This document shows, piece after piece, positions 10,215-57,334 of a stretch of 64,000 nt of DNA. Made by a program: the position numbers and the translations under genes. The notes under the pieces are model-generated. The model saw only the letters and a program-made list of their open reading frames with translations. It was not told the DNA's origin and did not search any database. Location of the stretch: positions 1-64,000 of the forward strand of contig JAPEUD010000049.1 of NCBI GenBank assembly GCA_026026165.1, written 5' to 3'. The first letter of the stretch is position 1; every line of letters starts with the position of its first letter. The DNA comes from Sarea resinae (Eukaryota).

Positions 10215-10908
10215 GATTGCTTGCTATCAAGTCAAGCTAAGCCTGACTACATAAATGTCAGTTTCGGGGTTGTGGTGACAGAGACAAAGTGGATTGCAGC
10301 TCCAAAGGTTGAAATCACCAGGAAACAGATAGTAAACACAGCAATCATAATACAATTGCAGCGGACTGCCTTGCGAAGATGCAAAACTCACCCGCGTGAC
10401 TGAGGGATTCCTAGAGGTGATCCAATGACGAGAATCGATGAAAGGGTCCGTACTGGCAATAGGAAGAGGTGTACGATGCGGAACCTATGTCGGGTATCGT
10501 GATATCAGAAGTTCCAAGCCGGTGAGGTGAGCGACTGGAGGTGAAGTGAGAGATGGATCCAGCTGTCGACGTCTGTCGTGGTACGTACCTGGTCCTCCTA
10601 ATCCTCTACGGTTGACGAACGGCGTCAAGGAGGACGAAGTACGGAGTACGGAGTACGCAGTACTCATATTCATCCATACTCGTACTCATATCCATACATC
10701 ATCGACATTTTTTTGTCAAACGGCGAAAACAACCAACCCGCGCCCCTCTGTCGATTTTCAATCCACGATGCTGCAACGATCTATCGCTTTCTTTGAGCCG
10801 AACAAGAATCTCTCCGTCAATACTCTTCGACTATAATATCATGTATATCTATTCGGGAACTGCTCACATGAAGCTCCTTCTCAACTCGAGAGCCTCGGGT
10901 CGATAGCC

Positions 10909-13894
10909 ATGCACGAATGCCTCACCACAAACGCCCTCGCGCGCATCTTTCAGCGGGAGCTGCATGGCCACAATGGCCACAATGGCCTCATATCGGTCGC
11001 CGACTTTCTCGTCCCTTCTCTGGCTACCTTGCCACTCCGGCGGCCAACGCCCTCTAGATTGTTCCGAGGCGGACGCCATGCATCCACCGTCGCTGGCAAT
11101 AATTCCCCATTTCTATCCCCGAGGGTGTTCAACATACTGCTTGAGGGTGTCGTGGAAGAGCGTGGGAGTGCCGAAGGCAAGAGATTGTGGGATCTTTGGT
11201 GCCGAGATCCGTCTCTAGATCTGCAGGGGCGTCATGAAGCTGGCGGCGTGCTGAAGATCGCCGATTCCAAGGGGAGATTTCTCACTCGTCTCGAAAGAAA
11301 CAACAAACGAATAGCACAATCATGGAAAGGTGTAAGGACAGATGCACAGACGGAAGATGCTGCTGAAGAACCTCGAGGACTGCCTCAGGTCGAAGAGGTC
11401 GCAAAAGGCGTCGCTAACATGCGTTCTTTTCTCCCGCCTGGTCCTTCCCGTGCTGATCCTAATGCGTGGATCGAGAGCCTTGAGAGATTTCTTCCTGTTC
11501 AACTCCGGCAAGAAGGGGTTCGAAATGAAAGTCCGCAAGATGAAAGTTTATTCAAACTTGAGACACTTTTGCGACAAGCACGACAACAGAGAAACATCGA
11601 TGTGCTAAGCTATCTCGGTGTTCACCAGGATCGTTGGGATGCCGTGATCTGGATAGTGAAAAGCCTAATGGACAATTCGGTCGAGGGTGACCTTCATCTA
11701 CGAGACGAGCGGCTGCCAAGTCTACCATCGCTACCCGATTCAAACCTGGAAGCATTGACTCTCAAAGGCGCAATATGGGCAGAAAAGCCGGAGAGATTAA
11801 GGGGCTCTCATAGCTTCTTAGGCCTCGATTACTTGACAGACTTGGAAAGTGAAGCTGTTGGTGGGCGACGTCGGGGTGGAGAATATGTCAAACGCCGCGA
11901 CGCACTGGCTCTGATCTGGCAAAGTCTTGGACACATGATCTTGGCTGCTGCGGATCTTCCGATGGACCTACGAAGTCGCCTTATGTTCAATGTTCGCCAG
12001 ATCATTGCGTATCTGCATCATGTCGATGCGATTCCAGAGACATTGTACAACTACACTCGCAATCCAGATGACATGGCAGGGCTGTCTAGGCCTCCGACCA
12101 TCCATCTTCTATCATCGCGTATATTGACTTCACTATCTGATGCGGTGTGGAGGGCCCACGAAGAGCAGGTCACTAAAGAAGCTGCAGCTGTGGGAGCCCA
12201 GTATACGTACCTGGGACATGAGATCCCTGGAGCAAGATACAAGCTCAGAGTACGGGAGCTCGGACCAGAGATCTGGATGGAACTGGTTCTCTGGTCTTGC
12301 GTCGAGGGGGGCTATTTCGCCGAAGCCAGTTCCATACTCTCCGAGATGCGCAAACGCAAAGGGGAGAAGAAATGGTCTTTGATCAATTGGGAGGCTATCA
12401 AGGATCCATCAGACACGCATCACACCAAATTCGCGAGAGTGAACTGGGATCTGATGCTTTCACGATATGGAGGGGCTGTTGGAGCTCCTGAAGGTTATAG
12501 CGCTGATCCTCCGTTTGTGGAGATGGGCGATCGAACAATCAGCAGCGAGATCGTGGCCGCCGTCGTCGACGGCCTGGTAGACAATATCCACGTAGGTGTG
12601 GGCTTTCGGGGCATCTCCCCTCAGATCGTCATCGACTACATCTCCATCCTCAAGAACATGCTCGAACGGGATCGATTTAGCCTAGGGGGAAATTCGTGGA
12701 ACAGCATCATCATCCGCCTCTTTGAATCCGGTGTTGTAGATCCTGAGATCAACCCCGAGCTGCTGGAGAGGATTGTCGTGCTTGCGCCAATATATCTGAA
12801 GGAATTACAGTCCGTCAATGCTCCTAGTAATGAAGACGTCGAGGATGGCTCGCACTCCTACGTCTTTGACCAGTCTGCCGCCGCTATTGGTCTCCTCCAT
12901 TATACGATGGATGCGTGTATCCAATCTGGCAAGATCCACACCACGCTGCGCATCTTCAATCTCCTACAATCCCACATCGACGCCAACAAGCGCAAGTCGA
13001 TCGATTCATTCGCCGAAAAGCTCCAGGAACAATTAATCTCGCCCGAGGCCGACGGGAGAGATAACGCGCTTGCTTTTTCTGCGCCCAAAACATCAGCGCT
13101 CTACCCACCTTTCCCGCCCCGCATCCTCGCAAACCTCGTCGACCTCCTTACCAAATCGTCCCACTTCGAAATCATCAATCACCTGCTCTTCTCGCAAGAC
13201 ATCGATGGCCCCACCATCCCGGAATACCTCTACGGCCACCCGCTCCTCGCGCCTAAACTAATCAACTTCGCCACCAGAACGCAAAACCATGCACTCCTCG
13301 CGTCCGTCGCCAGCAAGTACGGCTCCCCACTCGGCGCTTCGGCGCTCAGCGCCATGCTCGAATCGCAGATCAAACTCACGCGCTGGAACGCAGTCCACGA
13401 CCTCCTCAGCCTCATGCACAAGACGCCGGGCATCGGGTGGCGCGCACGCGACGTCGCCCTGCTAGCGAGGGCCGTGTTGAGTTTTGACGGGCGAGACGAC
13501 CACCGACAAGCGGGGCATGCCAAAGCTCTCCTGCGATCTCTGCTGTGCGGCAACTTTGGGCCGCCATACCGTCCTCCTTCGTCTCCTTCCGCTACGCCTT
13601 CGCACTCTCCGTATGCGCGTCCGCCACGCCCCTACGCGGTTATCGGCACCCTCGTCGATATCATGCGCTCTTTTGGCCCGCCCCTGAGCTCTTGCTGTCC
13701 CTTGCCCAATAGCTCCTCCTGGGCTTCGAGATACGCTACGCGGAGACCGTGGCGTGGGAGTAAGAGAGCGGCAGAGGGAGACAAGGAGAGGCAGTTGTGG
13801 ACCAAGGCGATGAATGCCGTGAGACCTAACATTGCCACCGTGAGGATCATCATGGAAGCAGCATTACGCGAGACGTCGGCGATACCTTCTTCGC

Positions 13895-13926
<32 letters not shown>

Positions 13927-14178
13927 GCTCCCCACCCCTCCACCTCGCATTCCAGCTCCTCTTCTGCCCCACCACCATCAACGCAAGAAACGCAAGACTC
14001 CACCTCCTCTCACGACCAGCCCCATGCCCACCCCCACGACCACCAAGACCACCAGCAAGAACAAGAACAAGAAGACATCATCAACTGGGGCGCCCAGACG
14101 CTCGAAAAGATGCTCGTGCCGCGCGCCGACATCGCCGCCGAGATCAGGGGTTACGCTCCTCGTGTGCCCGCCGCCTGA
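10909..14178 (+). CDS. Large conserved hypothetical protein (helical-repeat/PPR-like, probably mitochondrial); appears internally rearranged (see findings)
   Basis: 1089-aa uninterrupted ORF with an Arg-rich N-terminal leader, conserved-looking blocks (RPPTIHLLSSRILTSLSDAVWRAHE, LRVRELGPEIWMELVLWSCVEGG, DIDGPTIP, PNIATVRII) and a (TCA)n poly-Ser tract near the end. Confidence 0.8.
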
Positions 14179-14937
14179 GCCTTTCGTCGTCGTCGTCGTC
14201 TAGCGACCACGCTCATCACAGCCACGGCCACAGCCATGGCCACAGCCAGGGTCAGGGGTCGCATCATCGCTGAGTCGGCTTCCGGCTGCGGCTTTGGCTT
14301 TGGCTTTCATGGGAACCTAGGGGCGCGTGGCCGGGGTTTGGAGGAAAAGAAAAGAAAACAAGGGGTGAAGAGCTGAACGGCGCGGCTATCATCTTGTCCA
14401 GTGTATATATATGGAAGGTATATATTGATGGGATGGATCAAATACCTACCTACCTGCCTGCTTACCTACCCATCTGTACTATATACCAACCAATCAAATC
14501 AAATCAAGTCAAAACAACCGCAGCCTCTACCGAGTAATAGTAAATGAATGGTACAGCCTCCACTCTGTAGACCACTCCTACTCCTCCTACTCCTACGCCT
14601 ACTCCTATTCTAACTCCGACTCCCAACCATAAGAAAGGTACACCGATCATCTCATCATCTGTAGATAACAGCCATCTACCCATCTATCAACCCAGCCAGT
14701 ACTGATCTATCACATCCATCCATCCCTAATACCTCTCGCCCGATCAATAGTCTGATGCTTTCTCTACTCACACCCCCTCGGCGGCCGTCTTTCTCAATTC
14801 TCTCCATCAAACAGGCAGGCAGGCAGGCAGGCCACGGCACATTTTGAACTTTGGAAATTCATTATTCTAGGGCGGTAGTAGTAGTAGTAGTAGTCTTCAA
14901 CTGATCCTCTCTACCCCGAAACCCAATCGACCCAAAC

Positions 14938-26181: not shown

Positions 26182-29100
26182 TCAATCATGCATAGCCTCA
26201 TCATGCTTACCATTTCCACTCCTCTGGCTTGCTTCATTCTGTGGTGGGTCTTTTGCTACCGAATTGTCGATGGCATGGCCAGAAGTTACCAAATTCGGGA
26301 ACATATGCGTGACGGTCCTCTCCTTTTCCTTTTGGTGCCTCGTGTCCTCTTCTACTTCTTCCTCCTCCTCAACCTTCTCTTCGATGGTGTCTCCACTATC
26401 GTCATTTTCATCGTTCTCGTCCTCAAGCTCGCTTAACTCGCTCTCATCATCGGCACTGTCGTGAACACTGCCTGGTCTGCTTTCGTCCACCTTCTCTTCG
26501 TCTTCTCCCTGCTCGGCGAGTACCTCAGAGTGTGCAGCGAAAGTTTCGGGGGACTTGGAAATGGTAGCCTCTGCCATCCTTGCCGATCTAATCGTGGCTG
26601 GAGGGGCCAACGGCTTCGAAGAAGCAGCTTCGGCTTTGCGCTGGAGTTCTTTCCTTCCAACACCTTTCGTCCGAGGCTTGCTACCTTGATCTGCTTGGGG
26701 TGGTGTCTGTTCCGCAGCCGAGCCATCGGTGCTCATGAGCAAGTTGTTGAGGCTCATCATGTCCTTCCGTCCTAGATTAGCTGTCTTTTCCTTGATCTGA
26801 GGTACTTCCTCTTCGTAGAGACGAGCATATGTGTCCGCGATGAGATCGTCGATGAGTGTGGATTTCATTAGACCGTTGTTCAATCTTTTCAACTCGACTA
26901 CCTCGCGAAGGGTATCTAAAGCTGGGCTTGATGTGGTGGGGAGCTTGCACCAAGCCTCAAGACGCGCAGAGCTTGCTTGAAAGTCCTCGTGATTGATGGA
27001 TTTGAAGACCGTGTCCTCGTGTCCTGTTGGAATTTCGCCAACCCGACGTAAAACCTAAAGCCTGCTTAGTTCGGAACTGCAATAAGGGTAAGATTTGCAA
27101 AGCCCCTACCTTGAGATAAACCGTACAGGCTGCCTGCCAGACTCTCGTGTGATTCATGTATTCAGACGGCTTCTTTCTAAGACGCTTGACCAGTGCTTCT
27201 AGACTCGCTCGGTCGCTGAGCTGTCCGAGTACACCAACGAAGAACGTCATATAGCGTGAGGTGTACACGAAGTGTCTGCCGGGCCGTTCATGTTCCGGCT
27301 TCCAAACTTGCAATGCCATGGTCTTGGTAAAAATCTGCTGCATGAACTCATGTTTGGCACCCATTGCTGAAGTTATTTCCTCGGGAGCTTCATCATGGAT
27401 AATGTATGCAGCCTGTCGAGTATGAGCAAAAGATTATAGAACAGGACTTCGGAATATACCCTTGCAACCATGCGATGATGCCAATTTGATTTGTCTGCGC
27501 TTCTCAACGTCTTCAAAATCTGCAAAATGTATGGTACCCAGCTGTCCATCTCCGTCGATGCTGGGAATTTACTGGCATAAGGTGTAGCTTGCAAGATCCC
27601 GCTCCCTTCTTCAGGCTAATTCAGCGTTAGGTCGTTTTGAGGCAAGAAAAAAAAAGGATGGGTTTAAGCCCTTACCGTGATATCTTTTCTCTGAACAAGC
27701 TTATTGACAATAGACACGATCTTATAATGAGGCTCAAAGATACGATCTTGTCTGCTATCTCTGCGGATTGGAAGAGTATCAATAGCCGCGAGAAAGGCAT
27801 TGATAACCTCGTACACGTCTACAGTTCGACGTGTACGAATCGTCTCATCGTCGTTTTTCTGATACATCTTCCACAGGCTTTTGCCAAGCATGTAGTGGTT
27901 CCTGCTCGTGAGTTTAGCACAACAAATATTCTCCAAGCGCAGAGCATGACACACTTACATCCAGTAGTTAGGCCTCTCTACTAGCGCACGCTTGAATAGT
28001 TCGCTCGAAAATCTCCAAGCAGAATATGTGTCAAATTCACGGAATGGCTGCTTCTTGTACATACCCTGTGGACCGCTGTAAAATTTGGTGAAGTCGTCTA
28101 GCCAGAAGGCCTCCATTGAAAAGGGCGGGCGAGAAGAGGCATAGATGCGAAACCCGAAATCTGTATAAAACTCAGATAGCTTACTGACCGTTTCAAATGA
28201 CGTATCAGCAGAGCAAATTGCTAGAGCCAGGGCCTGTGTATAGCAGTGTACGGAACTTCGTTGCAGTTCATGCAGCTCGCGCTTGTTATTATTGATCTTG
28301 TCTGCTGACCAAAGCACATCCTCCTCAAGCTTGCAGTCAAATGTCTGAGCAAGACGATACCAAGTCTCCCAATTCTGCATACCAGCCTCCAAATCAAACC
28401 GGAAGAAAGCTTTTATAAAGTCAAGCTCATCGGCCTGGCCTTGTGCAATACGCTTTTGAGACCGAACTTTGGAGAGATTCAGATATCCCAGCATGAAATA
28501 CCACCCTTTCCTTGCGACCGCACAGCTCTCCGCTGTCACTGGTACAACAGGGAGGTCGCCAATACCCTGAAGAGCGCGATACAGGTCAATAGGATTGATA
28601 GGCTCCTTTAATTTGGTATTGATGATACGTCTGTTGAGCATCATGGCTGGTATCGGCCTCGGAGCTGAAATTATCGACTGCATACTGTCTATGGCAACCT
28701 TCAGTTCAGTCTTTAACAGATCCTTGACGTTGACTCTTCTGACTTGCGACATCACAAAATCCACGATTTGAATCGCGGTTTTCTTATCTAGAGGATGAGG
28801 ATGACATCCGTGCTCCTGCAGCTCAGCTATATTTGGAAACAATTTCAGGCCGTAGTAATCGTAAAGCACCTGGGCCAGATCAGACTCCCAGTTCTCACTT
28901 TTGTTCAGCTGCAGCAACTCGTTCTTCATTAGCTTCAAGAAAATCTCATTCCCTACTTCACAGAATGAACGACTACCAACAGCGAAATGAATCGAGCGGA
29001 GGTAGTCGAGGCGATCTTCTTCTGGAGTACGAAATTCGACTGAGTTCTGAGATATACCCTCTTTCAGTAGGTGGTACTGAATTAACCAGGCATGCACCTG

Positions 29101-32100
29101 CATTTTTCGTAATTTGTCTCGAAAAGTTTTGAAAGATGGGACAGCAGGGCTTGGCGTTTGACCGACTGCAATAGAATCAGTGTAGAAGTTGAAGACATGC
29201 AATAGTCTTGACAGCTTGGCTATGGCAGCCATAGAGGACTGAAGATGTGAATAGTGGATGCACTCAAAGCTTGTTGGTTCTCGCAATGCCATTTCCAATG
29301 ACTTTTCCAATACAGTCTCAAGAGTTCGCAACCACTTGAGCAAGGTGAATTGTCTGTGCGGTATGGGGCTCTCTAGGTACGTGGGCTTGCTTAATTCATC
29401 CATAATAGCTTCGAGAGTCCGAAGATAACAAGAGAACACCTTTGGGGGATATGATATCGCTGCGTAAGCTTCTCGGAGCTTCCTCCATAGAAAAACACGC
29501 AGCGAGGCACTCCCGCTTGCGAGGAACTTTGACATCTCCTGGAGTAGGGGATCTGGAGATGTATGAGCTGAACTGGCGACTCCTTCCGCAAGGGCTTCTC
29601 GACCCTCCGCGTTTTCTGGGGCTTCTCCGCCTTCTGGTGATGATTCCCCACTGCAGCCGCCAATGCTTGATGAATCGAGCACGGGCTCCAAGCTCTCAAT
29701 GACAGCAATTGGATCGCTTTCTCCTGTGCTAAATAGACCAAGGAAAAAGTCCATTGTTGTCAACCTTGAGATCTCGCGATCTGCTGCAGCAATTGATATT
29801 TCAGGCATCACCGCATTGTTTTGGAGCTCAATAAGGGGATCCCCGGCCATCCTAAGAAGACGCTTGAGATCTTCTAAGCATAACAGTATGTGCTCACGGG
29901 AAACACTCTTCGATAGGCCGGCATAACATGTTGAGGCCCACAGGTAGCGCAAAGATAGGAAATCTTCCGCAAAAGATTCATCGGGATCAACTTCTCGTAG
30001 ACTGATGAAATCACTAGCAAGCGCTGCCCACCGTCGTAGGCGCTGCTCTTGCAGCGCACGACTATCTTGGTCGACTTCGCTACTAGGATTCGTTATACTT
30101 GAGAAGATATCGAGATGAAGCTCAAATATTGTTTGAACCATTTCAATATCGGCAATATCGGATAGGGAAAGTTGGTATTTGTCGCCGTTGGCCTGTGCAC
30201 CGAATACCCTCTCGTTCAATTCGTTCAAAGCGATCTCTTGGGTCTTGTAGATGTATTCATCTAAGCCGATAAGAGCTTGTACTACGGTCTCTTTCAGACT
30301 GTGCGGCCAAAGGTGTTGCAGGTAAGTCGAGGACCCAATACCTTCCAGATGCGCCGTCTCCTTGACACCAATAAGAGATTGAAGCCATAGGAATCCGATT
30401 TCTTTCAAAGAGAGCCAATCGTTGTTCACCGTCAACACGAAATCAAGTAATCCATCTTCTCCAGATAAACAAGGCTTGCTGATTATCTCTCGACTCGAGG
30501 TTTTGGCATGCTCCAGAAACGCAGTCATTCCCGGGTTTCCCGAGCTGCTCAAAGAATCTTCAACGCTGGTACCTTGGAGGAAGGCCTTCACTTTCTCATC
30601 ATCCAAGGTTCGCAAAATCTGATAGAAGTCGGAAACAGAATCACCCGGCTTAGTGTTAGACGTCTGCAACCCATCGTGGCCTTCATCCACGAGCGATCTC
30701 AGATCTTGCACATTTCCTAACGATTCAACTCCTACCCTAGCAAGAAGCCCAGAAATGGTCTCAAACATCCAATGATCTGCTTGTGTGAATCGCTGCAGTT
30801 TCTCTTCATATTGCTTTGCAAGATTGATAGCTTGAAGTTCTTCGGATGGCCCACCTTCGGCAAGACTTTCACGAGCTCGCAGCCTCTTGCTTCGAACACG
30901 GCCTCCGTCCATGGATTCATTTATCCCAGCGGTGTCAGAGGACCTCTTTCTCATTGGCAGGACAGGACTAGTGACTTCTGAGGTCGCCTTGTTTGCTATC
31001 GAGATGTCACCATCCTTCACAGCAGAGCTAGGGATTCTGTCCGCTGACGGCTTAGAACGTGTCTCCGCAGGATCCACAACCTTTGGTGTGGACTTAGATG
31101 CGGAACCGTTTCCATGAGCGAGTAACGTCTGTGATTCTGGTGTTGGCGTTTGATTTCCAGAGCGGGGCTGCTTGTTTATGCTTGAACCCGCCCCTGGAGT
31201 CATCTCGCTGGTCTCGCCACCGGGTAGGCTGATCGAAAGACTAGCACCCGAACCCGGATCAATGGCGCCACAATACTCACCACCGAGCTGGTGAATAATG
31301 GCTTTACCTACGGCTGCCCAAGTTCTGGCAATAGGTTTGATTGTATGCCGCCTCGGCTGTCGGCCCAATGGGGTCTGTGCAGAACTATCTCGAGCGATTT
31401 GCGAAGATAAGAGGGACAAAAACGGGTATGGATCCATATGTCGTTTGAGTATCATGGAAAGCTTCTTCTTTTTCAAAGTCGACATCGGTGGTTGACCTAG
31501 CGAAAGCTCATCGGAGATATCTTTCAAAAGCTGATCCTGGTCAACACTGGCGCATGATTCAGCAGATCATGTGTAACGTACATCTCTCAGTTCCTCTCCG
31601 GCAAATCCTTCCTCCAGTCCCAAAGGCTCGAGCGTACCATCAAAGTCTCCGTCGTCCCCTTCCAGAACGGCTTCCAGACAGAATCTTGCGATCCGTCTGC
31701 TGCCTAAGAGACCACCGACTCTCGAGACCCGGCGCCAGAGTTCAACGTCAGTGTCATCTTTGTCAAGAGCTTCGGAAAAGCGATCCAATATGGTCTCAGT
31801 GGAAGTCTCGATTTCTTTTCGCGGTATGACCAACTCTTCGCCTTTCTCAGTAGCTTCCAGCTGCATGTAAGATAGGTTTAGCTTTAGGCAATCCAGCAGG
31901 AACTGGCCTTCGTTCTTATATGCTAGATAAAGGATTTGGGGTAGAGTGCTTGGCGTTCCGTCCGCGTTGGTAATGAGCACAGGTGTTTCGGGGCCTTGAA
32001 TTGAGGAAGATATTACGGCGTCATTGTCCGCTAGATGCCCATAGATTTTCAAACGGCGCGCCTCCGAGAGAGACTCGGGATATTTAAATATCTCGGACTC

Positions 32101-32400
32101 GAAAAGTGAGGTGTAGGCGTCCGCGGCTTGGTCATAATACTCGGGTCCTTGAGAGTGGAATTTGAGCGCATTTTGGTACAGCTTCAGCGCCTCCTCAATC
32201 TGATATCGTCTGGATTAGGACAACTATGTGTAGGTCTACATAGGCGGGACAACATACCTGAATCTCCTTTGTATCGTCGACCTCATCATCAGTATCCTCG
32301 TCGGGCTCAATGTTCAAAGCCGTGAAAGCAGACTAGTGATGCGACAACGCAGTCAGCAATGCGTTCAGCAGACCAGATCATGCGAATATAGACTGACCAT
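26182..32400 (-). CDS. HIR3: Histone transcription regulator 3 (HIR complex, Cabin1-like), multi-exon; the first coding exon is the ATG only
   Basis: M|SAFTALNIEPD...DDTKEIQ|IEEALKLYQNALK N-terminus, RRIARFCLEAVL, WETWYRLAQ, DKSNWHHRM and WKPEHERPGRHFVYT. Confidence 0.93.
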
Positions 32401-43092: not shown

Positions 43093-44215
43093 TTGCCTCC
43101 TTCCCTCGAGCCGAGCGTGAAGAAGTAGAGACATATCACCGAACATTCCTCACCTGCCATCGGCTATATGTACTATGAGGTCTGGTCATGGGTAGAAATC
43201 GTCGTAGAGTAAGCACTTTCTGTACAGATCAAGGCCTTCCTACCTTACCCAACTATCCTCTGGAGAAAGAAGAGAAAAGTATGTAATCATCTCAGCACCG
43301 TACATGACCATCAAAACGTGGCCCGTCATGGTCGGAACTCCACCTACTCTCGTGCTTTGTACTACTCTGTGACCTTGTTGATAACGAAACACTCCGATAA
43401 GGGCACGCGCGAGATGTGCGTGTTTTAGCGCCATTCATCGCCCATCCAGATGGAGGCCACCTTTCGGCCTCGACCTCTGGGAGAGTTTTGGGTTCAGCGA
43501 ATGGAATGCTGGAATGCTTCAAGACGACGGCAAGATGCTGTAGCTTCCTCGCTTCACCCACCATCAGCCCCCGCATCTTGCTTCTTACCATACATAGATA
43601 GCCATGGGGTTGTCTCTACTAGGTGGGCGTTAGGAAGCGACGGCCTCTATCTGCATCTCGACTACCTACTCGAGTATGAGCGGACGTGCGCCGGCGCCGC
43701 TATGAGATCCATCTCGATGAGATGAATTGGGCATGGCCGCACTTGCTATACTTTCGAGGCTCTGGCTCTTCTCGTCGCATTATTTTCCTTGGTAAACACA
43801 TGGTGTCGTCTGTGGTCTGTGATGCGGTGGTGTTGTCACTACCTCGATTGTCATTGTTCGCACGCCTCTGAGCCTTTATCGCGTTGTGTGGCGAAAATAC
43901 GCACAAACGGCGCACACCATGATGAATCAGATTTCCGGGCTCTGTTGCCTTGTCATCACGGCTATCCCATTTCCATAATTCTTCATGATATCCTTTGTCT
44001 TGATTGATGCCGCCTGGTGATTGTTTCTCCACAAAAAGCGTTTCACGAAGCGCTTATTCTCGTTTCTAGACTCGGTGCCGTCAAATATATAACATTCGCG
44101 CCCCAGATACCGATTGCCCACACTTCGTACAGAGTCTCCTGTGGCTTTGAAGGCGAAATCTCTCCTCTCCTCGAATTCGATCAAACGCCCGTGTGAAATC
44201 GATCGCAGCTTTACC

Positions 44216-47200
44216 ATGGGCGAGCTCAAGTCAGCACGATCATGGCTGCGTCGGCCTGGAAAGTTGCCTCAGAGCCATGGCCAACCTTCAGAACCACCAT
44301 CCCAGAATGCAATTCTTCGCACCACGATACTTGTCCGCAATGTCCATTGCGCGTCTTGCATCGCCTATGTCGGAGAGGTCCTCAACACTTTCCGATCTTC
44401 CATCCATCATCTCGATGTCAATATCGTTACCCATGAAGTTCAGATCGAACATACATCAGAGGTATCGGCCTATAATATTTGCCGGACACTTACAGATGCT
44501 GCATTTGAAGTCTACGGTGCGAGTACAACCGACGCCGCTGGTAATCGCATCGCCGAGCTCGATGTCGCCAGGGAAGAGAGCAGAGGATGGCTAGAGCAAG
44601 CGACAGACTACCTTGGCCATTCCCCTCGACTCACGCCCCGAGGGTCTGTCGCATCAGAGTCTAGATCTCATCCTGGTCGAAGCCAGCAGGAGAAGAGGCA
44701 GAAACATATTGAAAATTGCAAGGCTTGTCAATCGGAGGAGAAGATGGCCTTAGACGAGAGAGAGTCTTCCAGCACATCAGACGACCGACACGTCTCACAA
44801 GCTCCTACTCTACAAAAACATGCTAGTGATGAAAAGCGGTTGCTGGGGGATGAACTGAGGCAATACAATTACTCGTCAGCTCGTCGTGATACTGGTATCC
44901 CGGACAACTTAGTTCCCCCACAGGAGTCTCCTGACGAGAAAATGCATCAAGGAGACGGTACTTCCGCGCCAGTCATTGTGATTGACTCTCCAGAAAACCA
45001 AGCCGCACAGCCAAGATATGAAGCTGTCATAAGCATCGGCGGTATGACCTGCTCTTCCTGTACTGGTTCTGTCACAGACGGCCTCCGGGAATTCGCATGG
45101 GTGAAGGACATCAATGTCAATCTATTGACAAACAGTGCCACCATTATCTTCGAAGGCGCAAAGGAAAGGACTGATGAAATCATTGGAAGAGTCGAAGATC
45201 TTGGCTATGACTGTACATTACAGTCTTGTGAAGCCCTAAGGTTGCAGGACCATGACAGAAAACGCACACCTTCGACTGATGTACCTTTTGCAGAAGTTAA
45301 TCGAGTAACTTTGAGCATTGGAGGCATGACTTGCTCATCATGCACAAGTGCCGTTACCAGAGCTGTCCAGGAGCTTCCTCGGATCAAATCTATCAACGTC
45401 AGCCTCCTCACGAATAGCGCATCTATTACTTTTGAAGGGCCGAAGGAATTTGTGAATGAAATAGTAATGAAGGTCGACGACCTTGGATACGAATGTTCAG
45501 TTGATGGCGAGGTTAAAAGAGATGGACAGATGGAGGAGGGAGGTAAATCCAAGAACCAAGGCGATGTTTTCATGGCAACACTGAGCATCAAGGGAATGAC
45601 TTGCGCGTCATGTGCTGGAGCCATTGCTCAAACAATCAAGGAACTATCGTATGTTCGGTCAGTTAACATAGCTCTGTTGACAAACAGTGGTATCGTCGAA
45701 TTCGAACGACGGGAAAATGTTGATGCCATCGCGGAGAAAGTGGAAGACCTTGGATATGAATGCAAGGTGGAAGAAATCAAGTCGCTAGATCTAGGGGACC
45801 TCTCTGAAGACCCTCAAAGAACGACCATGATTGCTGTCGATGGTATGTTCTGCCAGCATTGTCCGCCGAGACTTTCGGAGGCACTGCGGTCTACATACGG
45901 CGGAAATGTTACCATTGCGAAGCCGCCCACTCTCAAGGATCCGATCATGAAGATTACATATACTCCTCACCCGCCCGACTTTACAGTTCGCAATATCATC
46001 AGTACATTAAGCTCTGTTAGCGACCCCTTCTCTGCCACTGTTTATCATCCACCAAGCATTGAAGAGCGTTCTCGTGCTGTGCAACTTCACGAACAACACC
46101 GGCTTCTTATCCGTCTAGTTCTAAGCATCGTGTTTGCAATACCAACCTTTCTTGTTGGAGTGGTTTGGATGGATTTAGTATCGTCCTCAAACAGCGTGAG
46201 AAAGTTTTTCGACAAACCGATATGGTCCGGTTCCGTTACTCGCTCGCAATGGGCGCTTTTCATCCTTGCCACGCCGGTCATGTTCTTCGCTGCGGATGTC
46301 TTTCATATCCGAGCTATCAAAGAGATTCGAGCTCTCTGGCGACCAGGCAGCAAAGTTCCGATACTACGAAGGTTCTATCGATTCGGAAGCATGAATCTTT
46401 TGATGTCGGCTGGGACGTCTGTTGCATATTTTTCATCTCTCGCCATTCTCATCGTTGGTGCCACTACTTCTGGCAACAAACGTGTTTCAACCTCGACTTA
46501 CTTTGACTCGGTCGTGTTCTTGACAATGTTCATTCTCATGGGAAGGTTCTTGGAAGCCTACAGCAAAGCAAAGACTGGCGATGCCGTGGGATTGCTTGGG
46601 AAGCTGCGTCCTAGCGAAGCGCTTCTTGTGAGCTCGAATAGTAGAACAGGATCTTCGGAAAGCCAGGACACGGCGAAGAATCCTTCGTCGACGACAATAC
46701 AAACCATACCTGTGGATCTTCTCGAAGTTTCTGACAGGGTTCTTGTTCCACATGGTACCTCACCTCCTGCCGACGGTATTGTGGTAATAGGGCAGACGCA
46801 ATTTAACGAAAGTTCTTTGACCGGAGAGTCGAGGCCTGTACCGAAACCAATTGGTGAAAAGGTTTTTGCTGGGTCCATCAACATTGGAAATCCAGTTACC
46901 GTGAAAGTTACGGAAATCGGCGGCACTTCTATGCTTGATCAGATTGTCGCCGTCGTACGCGAAGGGCAGACCAAGCGTGCTCCTGTGGAGAGGGTTGCAG
47001 ATGTACTAACTGGATATTTTGTCCCTGTCATAACTCTTCTTGCAATACTGACATTCGTAATTTGGCTTGCTCTTGGTCAGTCTGGAACTCTTCCTCGCGA
47101 TTATCTAGACGTCGACACTGGCGGTTGGGCGTTTTGGGCTTTGGAATTTGCGATTGCGGTTTTTGTTGTTGCTTGTCCCTGTGGAATCGGACTCGCTGCC

Positions 47201-48421
47201 CCAACTGCATTGTTCGTGGGGAGTGGATTAGCTGCGAAGTACGGCATTCTCGTCAAGGGTGGCGGCGAAGCATTTCAAGAAGCTAGTAAGCTTGACGCGG
47301 TGGTTTTCGACAAGACGGGCACATTGACTGAGGGGCTGGGAGTGAAGGTTACGGATGAAGAAATCCTGGTCGAAGCAGAAGACGCGAAAGTTGTCTGGGC
47401 CATTGCAAGATCTTTGGAGGAATCTTCTGGTCATCCGATCGCCCAGGCTGTCGTCGACTATTGTGAGACAAAAGAGAAAGTTATTATTGATTCGGCAGAT
47501 ATCGAAGAGATTCCAGGATGTGGCCTTCGGGGTAGCTTTCAGCTCAACAACGTCCAGTACGAGGGGTATATCGGCAACGAGCCGTTCATCAACCGTCTCT
47601 CTGGAATCGAAACGGAAACCAATTACTGGGCCACCTCTCGTTTATCAGCGTGGAAGTCCCAGGGCAAATCTGTTGTGCTCGTGGCCATCCGCAAGCAAGA
47701 CTCGAGCGCCATCCGTGATGACACACCCTTCACCCTTTCCGCCATTCTCGCTACCGCAGACCCCCTACGTCCCTCGGCTACCCCTGTCATTCGCCGTCTA
47801 CAGCAAATGGGCATAGCCGTCTATCTGCTCAGCGGCGACAATGTCACCACCGCCACGGCCGTTGGCTCCAGCGTGGGCATCAAGCCCGAGAACGTCATCG
47901 CGGGAGTGCTACCACACGAGAAAGCCGAAGTTATCCGTCAACTCCAACGAGGCAGCCTCAACCTATCCAGGGCCCCTTCAGTTCCAGGGTCGGAAATGCA
48001 TACACAAACCAAGACCGTAGCCATGGTCGGCGATGGCATCAACGACGCCCCCGCCCTAGCCGCTGCTACCATCTCCATAGCCATAGGCTCGGGCTCCGAC
48101 ATTGCTCTCTCCAGCGCTTCCTTTATTCTTCTCACCTCCAATCTCTCTTCCCTCCTTACGCTCCTAAGTCTCTCCCGCACCGTCTTCCGCCGGGTCAAAT
48201 TCAACTTCGCTTGGGCGCTGCTGTACAACACCCTGATGATTCCGTTGGCTGCTGGGGTTATCTATCCTGCACGAGGCCATCCCAAGGTCGGCCCGGTTTG
48301 GGCTAGTCTGGCTATGGCGGCTAGTAGTGTTAGTGTTGTGGCGAGTAGTCTTGCGCTGAGGATCAAATGGAGGGGAATAGGGTTCAGGGAGGAGAAAGTG
48401 GGGACAGAGGAGGGAGCGTGA
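44216..48421 (+). CDS. Copper-transporting P1B-type ATPase with five N-terminal CxxC heavy-metal-associated motifs, intronless
   Basis: HCASC, GMTCSSC twice, GMTCASC and GMFCQHC; TGES, transmembrane CPC, DKTGT, GHP, GDGINDAPAL, and YN...MAASS (P1B-1 signature). Confidence 0.96.
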   Translation: MGELKSARSWLRRPGKLPQSHGQPSEPPSQNAILRTTILVRNVHCASCIAYVGEVLNTFRSSIHHLDVNIVTHEVQIEHTSEVSAYNICRTLTDAAFEVYGASTTDAAGNRIAELDVAREESRGWLEQATDYLGHSPRLTPRGSVASESRSHPGRSQQEKRQKHIENCKACQSEEKMALDERESSSTSDDRHVSQAPTLQKHASDEKRLLGDELRQYNYSSARRDTGIPDNLVPPQESPDEKMHQGDGTSAPVIVIDSPENQAAQPRYEAVISIGGMTCSSCTGSVTDGLREFAWVKDINVNLLTNSATIIFEGAKERTDEIIGRVEDLGYDCTLQSCEALRLQDHDRKRTPSTDVPFAEVNRVTLSIGGMTCSSCTSAVTRAVQELPRIKSINVSLLTNSASITFEGPKEFVNEIVMKVDDLGYECSVDGEVKRDGQMEEGGKSKNQGDVFMATLSIKGMTCASCAGAIAQTIKELSYVRSVNIALLTNSGIVEFERRENVDAIAEKVEDLGYECKVEEIKSLDLGDLSEDPQRTTMIAVDGMFCQHCPPRLSEALRSTYGGNVTIAKPPTLKDPIMKITYTPHPPDFTVRNIISTLSSVSDPFSATVYHPPSIEERSRAVQLHEQHRLLIRLVLSIVFAIPTFLVGVVWMDLVSSSNSVRKFFDKPIWSGSVTRSQWALFILATPVMFFAADVFHIRAIKEIRALWRPGSKVPILRRFYRFGSMNLLMSAGTSVAYFSSLAILIVGATTSGNKRVSTSTYFDSVVFLTMFILMGRFLEAYSKAKTGDAVGLLGKLRPSEALLVSSNSRTGSSESQDTAKNPSSTTIQTIPVDLLEVSDRVLVPHGTSPPADGIVVIGQTQFNESSLTGESRPVPKPIGEKVFAGSINIGNPVTVKVTEIGGTSMLDQIVAVVREGQTKRAPVERVADVLTGYFVPVITLLAILTFVIWLALGQSGTLPRDYLDVDTGGWAFWALEFAIAVFVVACPCGIGLAAPTALFVGSGLAAKYGILVKGGGEAFQEASKLDAVVFDKTGTLTEGLGVKVTDEEILVEAEDAKVVWAIARSLEESSGHPIAQAVVDYCETKEKVIIDSADIEEIPGCGLRGSFQLNNVQYEGYIGNEPFINRLSGIETETNYWATSRLSAWKSQGKSVVLVAIRKQDSSAIRDDTPFTLSAILATADPLRPSATPVIRRLQQMGIAVYLLSGDNVTTATAVGSSVGIKPENVIAGVLPHEKAEVIRQLQRGSLNLSRAPSVPGSEMHTQTKTVAMVGDGINDAPALAAATISIAIGSGSDIALSSASFILLTSNLSSLLTLLSLSRTVFRRVKFNFAWALLYNTLMIPLAAGVIYPARGHPKVGPVWASLAMAASSVSVVASSLALRIKWRGIGFREEKVGTEEGA

Positions 48422-55001: not shown

Positions 55002-55099
55002 CAACCACAGAACAGCCGGCCTCGGCCATGACGATGCTTACACGGCAATGTGACCACTACCACCTAGACACCATCCAGAGAGAGTAACATCTTGCCAAC

Positions 55100-57334
55100 A
55101 TGGCTGCGGATTGTGCTAACCCTCTTCTCCTCGAATGGCTGGGCGAATGGATGGAGACGGCCCGACAACGCAATTCCAAGGGCGTCACTACGTAAGACAC
55201 GGAAACCTCTGTTGATCTTCATCTTACCCATATCCAGATATAAGAAAGCTTATGACTCGATGAAAGCGTGTCCGCTGACCTTCAGCCATCCCTCCGAAGC
55301 CCAGCAACTTCATGGTGTGGGCCCGAAGCTTTGTGAGCGCTTGGCGGAGAAGCTGAAAGCTCACTGTGCGGAAAATGGTCTTCCCATGCCAGAACCACCG
55401 GCCAAGGCACGAGGTATACAAATTGTAATTTCTTCCGTTGATGTTACTAACTTTCTAGGTCGAAAGCATGGCAGCGATGAAGATGGTACTGCAGGGCCGG
55501 CGAAAAAGACTCGGAAACCGAAGCCTTACGTGCCGACTCTTCGTTCGGGGGCATATGCTTTGATCATCGCATTATCTTCGATCGACGAAAACTCACCGCA
55601 AGGCCTTACAAAACCTCAGACTATTGAGCTCGCACAGCCTCATTGTGATTCATCTTTTACTGCACCAAGTGATCCGACGAAGTTCTATACGGCTTGGAAC
55701 TCGATGAAGACGCTACTGGACAAGGACCTGGTGTACGAGAGAGGCCGACCATTGCGAAAGTATGCCTTGACCGAGGATGGATGGGATGTTTCGAAGAGGA
55801 TCAAGGCCACTGCCACGGGAAGCACGAGTACCGATAGACTTACTAAGTCCAAACGTCAGGTCAGTGATAAAACATTGTCGCAAGCGTTATTTCATTCAAG
55901 ACATGCATCAATCAATTCTTTCTTACAGTTCCATCTCTAATACATGTACTAATAGCCTACAGCCTCTACAGTCACAAGCGCAGGACAGTATCTCAGCGAC
56001 TGCTTCTGGTGCATCAGCCGCGCGTCAAAAATTTCCCCCACCAAACCCCAAGCTCTACAGTATTCCAAAACCAATTCCAATTGATGATACTTTTCGAGCC
56101 ATTGACGACTTTGACGAAGCCTTTACTCCAGAACCTCAGAGGAGAGGAGGGGACGATGAATTTGCCGCTATATTCTCAGACCCACCGGAACCCTTGCCGG
56201 GAGGAAATGCCACCCAACAACCAACACTTAACGCTACCAACACTCATAGAACGACTGTGCCAGCTATCGATAAATTTCCTCCAGACTTCCGGCCCATAAT
56301 CTTACCACCATCATCTTTCAGTGTACAGCTAATTCTCGATAACCGAGAAGTACGATCTACGACAGACCGCGACTACATCAGCGAAGAGCTCATCAAGAAA
56401 GGTGTCAAACCAATAACGCGGTCTCTGGATCTCGGCGACGCTCTCTGGGTAGCTAAAGCAGACGATCCAAGCCTCCTATCTCGACATGGAGAGGAAGGTG
56501 ATGAGATAGTGCTAGATTGGATCGTCGAGCGGAAGAGACTCGACGATCTAGTCGGTAGTATCAAAGACGGTCGATTCCAAGAGCAGAAAGTAAGATATCA
56601 ATTTCACTTCTCTGCTCATTCAGATCTGACGAGCATCCCCAATTAGTTCCGACTTCGCAAATCCGGTATCAAAAACGTCGTCTACATCATCGAGGAAATA
56701 ACCCTAAGCCAAGAAACAGCGACGCGCTTCCAGGAAGCCGTCGACTCCGCCATCGCATCCACGCAGGTCGTCAACGGCTATTTTGTCAAGAAGACACAGA
56801 AGCTAGATGACACGATCCAGTACCTCGCCCGTATGACGACCATGTTGAAGACGCTCTACGAAGTACGCACCCTTCCCCCTTTCCCTGACCATCCCAGTTC
56901 CACTCATCCAGCCTAACAAACCCCAGAACAAACCCCTACACATCATCCCCACGCGCATCCTCTCTCCGCCAACCTATCTCCCTCTCCTCACCCACCTCCG
57001 CACCACGACGCCCCTCCCAACCCATCCCCACATTACCTTCCCAGCCTTCTCCTCCCTCGCCAGCAAATCCGAGTCCTTGACCCTCCGCGACGTCTTCCTG
57101 AAGATGCTGATGTGCACGCGCGGCCTGACGGGCGACAAGGCGCTCGAGGTGCAAAAGCACTGGCCCACGCCCCGGGCGTTCTCGCAAGCGTTTGGTAGAT
57201 GCAAAGACGACAAGGAGAAGAACGAGATGGTGTGGAAGGTCTGTGGTGGCTTGGTGGGGAGGCGGAAAATCGGGAAGGCGCTGAGTGGGAAGCTCGCCGA
57301 GGTTTGGGGCGGCGTGGGTGCCGCTGGCACGTGA
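55100..57334 (+). CDS. MUS81: Crossover junction endonuclease Mus81, multi-exon
   Basis: [34 protein letters not shown] winged helix, [25 protein letters not shown] (ERCC4 ERKxxxD) and C-terminal HhH. Confidence 0.96.

What the first reader, a model, noticed from the sequence alone, without database searches (positions are those of the whole stretch)
11097..13760. Apparently scrambled gene: two internal segments reciprocally swapped, frame preserved
Seen: segment A (11102-11271, 170 nt) and segment B (13712-13755, 44 nt) are each preceded by CAATA (11097-11101; 13707-13711) and followed by GGGAG (11272-11276; 13756-13760). Each pair of pentamers is in the same codon phase and both lengths are 2 mod 3, so exchanging A and B keeps the 1089-aa ORF open. 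After exchange the N-terminus reads ...RHASTVAGN-SSSWASRYATRRPWRG-RFLTRLERNNKR, a continuous Arg/Ser-rich leader. The C-terminus reads ...SFGPPLSSCCPLPN-NSPFLSPRVFNILLEGVVEERGSAEGKRLWDLWC...IADSKG-SKRAAEG...PNIATVRII. From my recall of Pezizomycotina homologues (not a search), the FNxLLxxVVExxGSxxGxxLWxxWC motif lies near the C-terminus just before PNxxTVRII. Segment A also grades from C-rich to G-rich, matching the flanks at 13.7 kb. The genomic block order would be 1-4-3-2-5. Inference: a fixed in-frame rearrangement, a pointer-guided scrambled gene unscrambled at DNA or RNA level (ciliate-like; I know of no fungal case), or an assembly or in-silico artefact.
Basis: partly seen in the sequence, partly recalled or inferred. 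Interest (0 to 1): 0.85.

Follow-up and report, generated by a model that had tools for sequence, protein, structure and literature searches.

The report
Helix pair relocated within fungal gene
In this fungal gene a short two-helix piece that relatives carry near the protein's tail sits near its head instead, and because a distant fungus has the same intact layout it is an old, working rearrangement rather than a scrambled gene awaiting repair.

Summary
The displaced motif is real. ORF 10909-14178 (1089 aa) carries FNILLEGVV..GS..GK..W..WC at residues 74-98. Of 104 other family proteins, 101 carry it at 0.61-0.88 of their length, 2 gave no hit and 1 has it N-terminal.

It is not an artefact. 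An independently built contig from a public run (depth 351) covers 10600-13883 with 0 differences and no joints.

It is not a gene waiting to be unscrambled. Xylona heveae XP_018185259.1 aligns collinearly with the as-is protein (residues 13-988, 33% identity, E 5e-151). It has the motif at residues 73-99 and none at the C-site. The motif is the best conserved part between the two proteins (15/27).

The CAATA/GGGAG "pointers" are chance. Eleven frame-preserving 5+5 pairs exist in the real sequence, and 61% of codon shuffles give at least one in-phase pair.

Whether segment B was swapped in return cannot be decided. A one-way move of exactly 57 codons fits as well.

Best reading: an old, fixed, selectively kept non-cyclic permutation of one PPR-like helical hairpin, tethered by flexible linkers in both layouts. 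It is a modest curiosity.

The parts
10909..14178 (+). Single-exon ORF of 1089 aa (P0001). It is a member of a ~1000-aa fungal helical-repeat (PPR-like) protein family, in a permuted segment order.
   Evidence: ORF; 67 homologues, best 43-44% identity; collinear with Xylona heveae P0069 over residues 13-988; alpha-solenoid model, PPR proteins as best PDB fold matches.
10909..11100 (+). Block 1, residues 1-64: the genuine N-terminus, Arg/Ser-rich and presequence-like, ending in R-H-A-S-T.
   Evidence: Aligns with the homologues' N-termini. 28/64 residues are identical to P0069. P0069 is the best of 107 family proteins for this block, score 79 against 61 for the next. pLDDT is below 50. The mitochondrial presequence reading is an inference.
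11101..11271 (+). It holds the two-helix PPR-like hairpin; the core motif is at residues 74-98 (11128-11202).
   Evidence: Motif HMM hit at residues 69-101, iE 1e-17. The canonical position is C-terminal in 101 of 104 other family proteins. AF2 gives helices 71-85 and 87-98 with pLDDT 92/93/84, between stretches below 50. 15/27 motif residues are identical to P0069.
11272..11454 (+). Low-confidence linker (residues 122-182) between the relocated hairpin and the first conserved helix of the body (DPNAWIESLERFLP).
   Evidence: pLDDT is below 50 for residues 110-161. 16/61 residues are identical to P0069.
13712..13755 (+). Segment B (residues 936-950, SSSWASRYATRRPWR). It lies just upstream of the place where relatives carry the hairpin. 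Its origin is undecided: native there, or exchanged.
   Evidence: Its counterpart in P0069 (…SQHTQIKPW) is at the same place. A profile of the canonical upstream flank finds nothing. Score comparisons are inconclusive.
13756..13809 (+). C-site (about residues 950-967): the gap where canonical orthologues have the hairpin, just before RPNIATVRII.
   Evidence: Alignment. The motif HMM gives no hit here. The model has low-confidence loops at 942-953 and 961-966.
11097..11101 (+). CAATA pentamer ('left pointer', N-site); chance match.
13707..13711 (+). CAATA pentamer ('left pointer', C-site); chance match.
11272..11276 (+). GGGAG pentamer ('right pointer', N-site); chance match.
13756..13760 (+). 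GGGAG pentamer ('right pointer', C-site); chance match.

Best explanation
The gene is read as it stands. It encodes a PPR-like, probably mitochondrial, alpha-solenoid protein. One two-helix hairpin with its short flanks (about 57 codons) has been moved from its ancestral place near the C-terminus, just before PNxxTxRII. It now sits about ten residues after the presequence-like N-terminal block.

The move happened once, in a common ancestor of this fungus and Xylona heveae, and has been kept by selection since. It is tolerated because the hairpin is a small self-contained element held by flexible linkers in both layouts. It can therefore plausibly reach the same docking surface on the body from either tether.

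Shown:
- the displaced position of the hairpin;
- read-level support for the DNA order;
- the shared order in a second species;
- conservation of the motif at the new place;
- a confident hairpin between low-confidence linkers in both layouts.

Inferred:
- a single origin;
- docking at the same site;
- mitochondrial location;
- the mutational route. The simplest route is a three-break, in-frame transposition, or a duplication of the hairpin followed by loss of the old copy.

No DNA- or RNA-level unscrambling is involved.
For: (1) DNA order is real. The run X1 contig (3665 nt, depth 351) covers 10600-13883 with 0 other letters, 0 gaps and no joints. X1 may be the source sample, but its contigs come from a different assembler. 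The 5-nt repeats are also far too short to mislead an assembler.

(2) The same order occurs in an independent genome. An exhaustive phmmer search of residues 1-200 against 1.84 billion representatives gave 33 hits. Only P0069 matched in one stretch (query 17-200 to 16-189, E 6e-11); the other 32 matched the motif to their C-terminal part. P0069 is Xylona heveae XP_018185259.1. BLASTP of P0001 against P0069 gives one collinear HSP, 13-988 to 10-955, 336/1008 identical, E 5e-151. P0069 has the motif at 71-101 and none at the C-site.

(3) Constraint holds at the new place. The motif is 15/27 identical between the two, against 252/698 for the body and 361/1089 overall. P0001's motif scores as well as those of canonical orthologues (iE 1e-17).

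(4) Both ORFs are intact. No other Xylona protein appears among the 9 hits of P0069, so no canonical paralogue is seen there.

(5) A single origin is not rejected. Both proteins fall in one 10-row group (support 81/90) of the careful 46-row tree, and 22% of 200 bootstrap trees join them. The AU test gives p 0.636 under LG+G4, where the joined tree is 3.94 lnL better than the free quick search. It gives p 0.366 under LG+C20 PMSF, where the joined tree is 1.80 lnL worse. P0069 is the best of 107 family proteins for two regions outside segment A that flank the break points: block 1 (79 vs 61) and residues 901-935 (56 vs 40).

(6) The hairpin is a tethered module. In the AF2 model of P0001 (pLDDT 76.4, pTM 0.77), helices 71-85 and 87-98 have pLDDT 92/93/84 between stretches 1-65 and 110-161 below 50. 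In the AF2 model of canonical P0003 (73.1, 0.74), helices 851-865 and 867-877 have pLDDT 94/93/91 between 835-844 and 890-909 below 50.

(7) Fold class. PPR proteins (plant mitoribosome PPR, PPR10, designed PPRs, yeast Rmd9p, human mS39) lead the Foldseek list. PPR_2 weakly matches the hairpin of P0007 at 808-831.
Against: P0001 and P0069 are not sisters in the best trees, though the separating branches are weak (63/74 and 61/77). Both are long branches, so joining them could also be an attraction artefact.

No RNA data exist for either gene here, so translation of the as-is order is inferred from conservation.

The contig evidence may come from the same sample as the window, and contigs cannot show rare variants.

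Pfam gives no PPR hit for P0001 itself at E up to 1, and Foldseek TM-scores are low (0.14-0.22).

The rest of this genome could not be searched, so a canonical paralogue elsewhere in it is not excluded.
Confidence: 0.85

Rival explanations
1. True reciprocal exchange. Segment B originally lay in the N-terminal leader and changed places with A in one four-break event, for instance by serial template switching at 5-nt microhomologies. The result was then fixed.
For: The exchange as drawn keeps the frame. B is Arg/Ser-rich like the leader. Ungapped scores of B are higher against the homologues' N-terminal 80 aa than against their C-site flank, in 56 vs 15 of 81. That test is biased by the doubled target length and by composition.
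Against: The pentamers are at chance level: 11 alternative frame-preserving pairs exist, and 61% of shuffles give a pair. The event predates a 33%-identity divergence, so junction microhomology would not be expected to survive. B's counterpart in Xylona is at the C-site, and its leader has nothing B-like. A three-break move of exactly 57 codons (11101-11271) explains the same data with one break fewer. No relative places B at the N-terminus.
Confidence: 0.2
2. Two independent relocations. The window's lineage and Xylona each moved the hairpin to the same N-terminal spot.
For: The best ML trees do not make them sisters. Their overall identity of 33% is lower than P0001's identity to some canonical proteins (42-43% to P0099).
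Against: The branches that separate them are weak, and AU tests do not reject a clade (p 0.636 and 0.366). The spacing from R-x-A-S-T to F-N is identical, and the C-site is equally emptied. P0069 is the top match for block 1 and for residues 901-935 among 107 proteins. A rare four-junction change arising twice at the same positions is unparsimonious.
Confidence: 0.1
3. Programmed unscrambling. The genomic order is a scrambled template that is reordered at the DNA level (ciliate-like, pointer-guided) or the RNA level to give the canonical protein.
For: Nothing beyond the existence of the pentamers and the absence of RNA data.
Against: The pentamers are at chance level. No joints appear in the contigs. 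The as-is frame is open over 1089 codons, and its order is conserved in frame in another class-level lineage with the motif under constraint. There are no splice-like signals at the junctions. Ten other genes of the window show ordinary collinear Pfam matches. A full-text search for 'scrambled genes', 'fungi' and 'unscrambling' listed 4 papers, all on ciliates (listing only).
Confidence: 0.01
4. Assembly or in-silico artefact of the window.
For: None found. The only caveat is that X1 may be the source sample.
Against: A contig from another assembler covers all four junctions with 0 differences at depth 351, like its neighbours at 329.5 and 340.6. 5-nt repeats cannot mislead a k=31 graph. Xylona heveae has the same order.
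Confidence: 0.01
5. Dead or dying allele. The rearrangement inactivated the gene, and the ORF is open only because the event is recent.
For: The hairpin now lies close to the presumed presequence and could disturb import. There is no expression data.
Against: The order is shared with a protein only 33% identical, so it is old. Both ORFs are intact and the hairpin is the best conserved part. The Xylona proteome shows no other family member.
Confidence: 0.03

Closest known systems
Non-cyclic permutations of proteins (order of segments changed while both termini stay). PMC2096629; passages read.
   Same: The same segments appear in a different linear order. The terminal blocks (1 and 5) are unchanged, and an internal element has changed places with the ~800-residue body.
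   Different: The cases in that paper are found by structure, between proteins without clear sequence kinship, and the paper asks whether such permutations arise naturally at all. Here the two orders occur among clear orthologues and are visible at sequence level, and the permuted order is conserved in two lineages.
Circular permutation, e.g. saposin/swaposin; models 'permutation by duplication', 'fission and fusion' and 'cut and paste'. PMC3320104; passages read.
   Same: A fixed genomic rearrangement gives a functional protein with reordered parts. Duplication followed by loss of one copy is a plausible route here too.
   Different: This is not cyclic: the N-terminal block 1 and C-terminal block 5 keep their places. 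No two-hairpin intermediate was found among 105 family proteins.
Scrambled genes of ciliates (Oxytricha, Chilodonella), reordered at pointers during macronuclear development. Recalled; listing only.
   Same: The order of coding segments differs from that of the orthologous protein.
   Different: There are no pointers beyond chance, no eliminated spacers and no second DNA form. The 'scrambled' order is itself an intact, conserved reading frame.
PPR and PPR-like mitochondrial helical-repeat proteins of fungi, e.g. Rmd9p and Aep2/ATP13. features and folds are leads only.
   Same: Long alpha-solenoid of helical hairpins. The relocated element has the look of one PPR unit (PPR_2 match at the hairpin of P0007, 18.2 bits). 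The N-terminus is presequence-like.
   Different: Pfam finds no PPR in P0001. A PDB profile search gave nothing relevant at E up to 1: two ATP synthase epsilon chains at E 0.12 and 0.14. The family has no name or tested function.

Membership tests
Ciliate-type scrambled gene (pointer-guided unscrambling) | Matching pointers at the ends of segments that must be joined, beyond chance expectation | tested here: not met
   Left 5-mer matches: 2 found, 3.5 expected. Right: 16 found, 10.9 expected. There are 11 frame-preserving pairs in the real sequence. 60.8% of 1000 codon shuffles give at least one in-phase pair.
Ciliate-type scrambled gene (pointer-guided unscrambling) | A second, reordered DNA (or RNA) form of the same gene | tested here: inconclusive
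   No joints and no other order in the contigs of X1, but contigs drop rare variants. No RNA run is listed.
Ciliate-type scrambled gene (pointer-guided unscrambling) | The scrambled form is not itself the expressed reading frame | tested here: not met
   The as-is frame is open over 1089 codons. Its order is conserved in Xylona heveae, with the motif 15/27 identical.
Circular permutation | Cyclic order kept: the N-terminal part of one protein equals the C-terminal part of the other, and vice versa | tested here: not met
   Blocks 1 and 5 align with the homologues' own N- and C-termini; only the hairpin has moved.
Non-cyclic permutation among orthologues (intragenic relocation of a segment) | Homologous segments in a different linear order in otherwise collinear orthologues | tested here: met
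   Motif at relative position 0.06 in P0001 and 0.07 in P0069, against 0.61-0.88 in 101 of the 102 remaining family proteins. A non-collinear second HSP appears in 28 of 67.
Non-cyclic permutation among orthologues (intragenic relocation of a segment) | The arrangement is real in the genome and heritable | tested here: met
   Independent contig at depth 351 with 0 differences. Same order in a second, separately sequenced species.
Reciprocal segment swap (order 1-4-3-2-5) | The second segment (B) is homologous to what relatives have at the first site | tested here: inconclusive
   The N-terminal linker is not conserved. A profile of the canonical C-site flank finds nothing. Score tests are biased and ambiguous.
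Pentatricopeptide repeat (PPR) proteins | Pfam PPR models above the curated threshold | tested here: not met
   P0001 has no PPR family at E up to 1. Of 8 homologues scanned, only P0007 reaches PF01535 (28.5 bits, cut-off 25). PPR_2 on its hairpin scores 18.2 bits against a cut-off of 30.
Pentatricopeptide repeat (PPR) proteins | Solenoid of antiparallel helix pairs resembling solved PPR proteins | tested here: inconclusive
   Foldseek's best PDB matches are PPR proteins (E 6e-4 to 1e-3, prob 0.98-1.00), but TM is only 0.14-0.22, and importin- and HEAT-like solenoids follow closely.

The most novel reading that the evidence does not exclude
The genomic order could be a template that is reordered in a minority of nuclei, or at the RNA level, to give the canonical protein. 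That would be a first programmed unscrambling in a fungus. It is not strictly excluded, because no RNA data or raw long reads were available. A milder and likelier novelty (about 0.1) is that the same hairpin relocation arose twice, independently, in two fungal lineages.
Probability: 0.01. Interest if true: 0.95.

Novelty: new variant of a known kind. Interest (0 to 1): 0.33.

Why it matters
This is a clean, sequence-level example of a natural non-cyclic permutation between orthologues. One helical hairpin of a ~1000-residue solenoid has been moved across ~850 residues and kept under selection in two lineages. The structure-based literature read here treats natural cases as rare and doubtful (PMC2096629).

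It suggests that this hairpin is a tethered docking module whose place in the chain is free. That is testable, and useful for engineering repeat proteins.

It may also serve as a rare genomic change marking a clade that includes Xylona heveae and this fungus.

It does not open a new mechanism of gene expression. The exciting reading (unscrambling) is very unlikely.

Tried and rejected
- Own genome search: no whole genome is held for this window. Paralogues elsewhere could not be sought.
- RNA evidence: no RNA holder listed.
- Runs X2 and X3 of the same study held next to none of the words, and nothing could be laid.
- Shorter fragments of close relatives: 1510 candidates, none at E up to 0.001.
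- Metagenome contigs: two scans, with the N-terminal alignment A4 and with P0001. 534 and 234 pattern matches, none confirmed by tblastn.
- Earlier findings of this scan: nothing by place, sequence or words.
- First strict regex for the motif found it in only 10 of 67 homologues. It was replaced by an HMM.
- Relic of the motif at the C-site: 'AEGDKERQLW' looks by eye like 'AEGKRLW', but the HMM gives no hit there at iE below 1, in the protein or in any of the six frames. Rejected as unsupported.
- Nucleotide repeats of A or B elsewhere in the window: only chance 10-14-mers.
- Origin of B: the profile of the canonical 42-aa upstream flank gave no hit. Ungapped score comparison was inconclusive and biased by region length and composition.
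- PDB sequence profile: only two irrelevant hits, E 0.12 and 0.14.
- AU test with the mixture model on 46 rows did not finish in two calls. The careful 19-row search did not finish either. Both were replaced by 19-row quick trees.
- Complex prediction of the hairpin (residues 61-125) with the body (162-1000): no verdict, score 0.00, controls not run, alignments not used. It says nothing either way.
- Model coordinates are not given to the script box, so the docking site of the hairpin in the two AF2 models could not be compared.
- A paper search on Xylona heveae genomes listed nothing bearing on this gene (listing only).
Full report
**Observation.** The window holds one long ORF, 10909-14178 on the + strand, 1089 aa (P0001).
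CAATA is at 11097-11101 and 13707-13711. GGGAG is at 11272-11276 and 13756-13760. Segment A is 170 nt and segment B is 44 nt.
- Both segments start at the second position of a codon, so exchanging them would keep the frame.

**Is the motif misplaced?** Yes.
- A search of 5.8 billion proteins gave 67 homologues of about 1000 aa. They come from lichen-forming and other ascomycetes (named ones include Toensbergia, Hypocenomyce, Vezdaea, Sclerophora, Lepidopterella and Cenococcum), with at most 43-44% identity.
- In the sequences read in full, FNILLEGVV..GS..GK..W..WC lies at about residue 840-880, just before PNLQTxRII.
- BLASTP of P0001 against the 67 gave the main HSP from about residue 111-398 onward. 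In 28 of 67 it also gave a second HSP from P0001 residues ~12-139 to the homologue's C-terminal part.
- A motif HMM built from homologues only hits P0001 at 69-101 (relative position 0.06, iE 1e-17). It hits 66 of 67 homologues at 0.71-0.87; P0058 gave no hit.
- With 37 more family proteins collected later, 35 have the motif at 0.61-0.88, P0100 gave no hit and P0069 has it at 71-101.
- P0001 has no second copy at the C-site, and no copy exists in any frame of the 64-kb window.
- Block 1 (residues 1-64) is a genuine N-terminus: it aligns with the homologues' N-termini (H.C..L.R.F…FL.P).

**Are the 'pointers' meaningful?** No.
- Homology fixes the break points only to within tens of bases.
- Within those limits the real sequence has 2 left and 16 right shared 5-mers (3.5 and 10.9 expected). 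These give 27 combinations, 11 of them frame-preserving.
- Of 1000 codon shuffles of the three regions, 60.8% give at least one in-phase 5+5 pair. 22.3% give at least the 7 observed in-phase pairs.
- The C-to-G gradient of A is within about 1.5 SD of the ORF's own variation.

**Is it an artefact?** No.
- One public run (X1, possibly the source sample) holds all sampled words of 10600-14400.
- Its contigs, built independently from the reads, include one of 3665 nt at depth 351. It covers 10600-13883 with no difference, gap or joint, and so spans all four junctions. Neighbouring contigs have depths of 329.5 and 340.6.
- The contig ends at a serine-codon repeat (13884-13938), not at a junction.
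- Repeats of 5 nt cannot mislead an assembler.

**The decisive result.** An exhaustive HMMER search of residues 1-200 against 1.84 billion cluster representatives gave 33 hits.
- In 32 of them the best stretch is the motif, matched to the target's C-terminal part.
- One, P0069, matches query 17-200 to its own 16-189 in a single stretch (E 6e-11).
- P0069 is XP_018185259.1 of Xylona heveae TC161, 1047 aa.
- BLASTP of P0001 against P0069 gives one collinear alignment, 13-988 to 10-955, 336/1008 identical, E 5e-151.
- Xylona has AFNVILGGIVDLHGSKEGKRLYDIWCQ at residues 73-99, with the same spacing after R-Y-A-S-T as in the window. Its C-site (…GPPLEKLCPNLLSQHTQIKPWSND…VVPNLTSVRAIM) has no motif.
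- So the 'scrambled' order is the normal, intact reading frame of a separately sequenced fungus whose protein is only 33% identical.
- By region, identity between the two is 28/64 in block 1, 15/27 in the motif, 252/698 in the body and 361/1089 overall. The hairpin has therefore been under constraint at its new place.
- No other Xylona protein is among the 9 hits of P0069.

**One origin or two?**
- In a FastTree of 101 rows, a careful IQ-TREE of 46 rows and quick trees of 19 rows, the two are not sisters. They sit in the same poorly resolved group (81/90). The group also holds canonical proteins of Sclerophora, Vezdaea, Caeruleum and Watsoniomyces, and lies next to Candelaria.
- The branches that separate them have support 63/74 and 61/77, and 22% of 200 bootstrap trees join them.
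- AU tests do not reject a clade. Under LG+G4, p is 0.636 and the joined tree is 3.94 lnL better than the free quick search. Under LG+C20 PMSF, p is 0.366 and the joined tree is 1.80 lnL worse.
- Outside segment A, P0069 is the best of 107 family proteins for block 1 (79 against 61) and for residues 901-935 upstream of the C-site (56 against 40).
- I take a single old event as most likely (about 0.85 against 0.1 for two events).

**Swap or one-way move?**
- The data need only that the hairpin left the C-site and entered the N-site.
- A move of exactly 57 codons (11101-11271), from between R949 and G950 to between N64 and G122, is in frame and needs three breaks instead of four.
- B's counterpart in Xylona lies at the C-site as well.
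- Attempts to place B by homology failed both ways.
- I favour the one-way move or duplication-then-loss (about 0.6-0.7), but this is not settled.

**What the protein is.**
- Pfam finds nothing in P0001. One homologue passes PF01535, and its hairpin weakly matches PPR_2.
- Language-model neighbours include PPR, ATP13/Aep2 and MNE1 clusters (leads only).
- The AF2 model of P0001 (pLDDT 76.4, pTM 0.77) is an alpha-solenoid. Its best PDB fold matches are PPR proteins, with low TM-scores.
- The Arg/Ser-rich block 1 ending in R-x-A-S looks like a mitochondrial presequence (inference from general knowledge).

**Why the move may be tolerated.**
- In the P0001 model the hairpin (helices 71-85 and 87-98) has pLDDT 92/93/84, between stretches below 50 (1-65 and 110-161).
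- In the model of the canonical P0003 the same hairpin (851-865 and 867-877) has pLDDT 94/93/91, between low-confidence loops 835-844 and 890-909.
- In both layouts it behaves as a small, well-defined element on flexible tethers.
- That it docks on the same surface is my inference.

**Context.** Ten of the 20 other long ORFs scanned gave ordinary, collinear Pfam matches: BCS1, FtsJ, metallo-beta-lactamase, ChAPs, FAD-binding, Cu-ATPase, BRF1, PHD, MUS81 and kinesin. The other ten gave none. Nothing suggests a genome-wide habit of scrambling.

**Comparison with what is known.**
- The case is a non-cyclic permutation, not a circular one, since both termini stay in place.
- Circular permutations and their routes (duplication, fission-fusion, cut and paste) are well described (PMC3320104, passages).
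- Natural non-cyclic ones are treated as rare and uncertain in the structure-based paper read (PMC2096629, passages).
- A full-text search for 'scrambled genes', 'fungi' and 'unscrambling' listed only four ciliate papers (listing).

**Verdict.** This is a real and old relocation of one helical hairpin, conserved in two lineages, and the gene is read as it stands. It is not a scrambled gene and not an artefact. Interest is modest (0.33); novelty: new variant of a known kind.

Noticed in passing
window 13884-13938: A run of serine codons (TCA repeats, about 12 Ser) in the C-terminal low-complexity tail of the ORF. The public run's contigs break exactly here. It is followed by a His/Gln/Pro-rich stretch.
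   Followed up: no
window 10950-10985 and 14200-14260: CATGGCCACA-type short repeats encode HGHNGHNG near the start of the ORF. Similar CACGGCCACAGCCATGGCCACAGCC repeats lie just after its stop. A contig from elsewhere in the run matches 14215-14248 with 3 differences, so this looks like a dispersed microsatellite-like motif.
   Followed up: no
window 55068-56646: A MUS81-like endonuclease gene is read in two overlapping frames: HHH_8 plus winged helix in one, ERCC4 in the next. This probably reflects an intron between them.
   Followed up: no
window 27955-32214 (- strand): Two adjoining long open frames (1203 aa and 215 aa) have no Pfam match at E up to 0.001. They may be one large uncharacterised gene.
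   Followed up: no
window 44093-48421: A Cu-transporting P-type ATPase with four HMA domains in one 1442-aa open frame. Ordinary.
   Followed up: no
P0100 and P0058 (family proteins): These two family members gave no hit to the hairpin HMM at all. They may have lost the hairpin or be mis-modelled. If real, hairpin-less forms would bear on how dispensable the element is.
   Followed up: no
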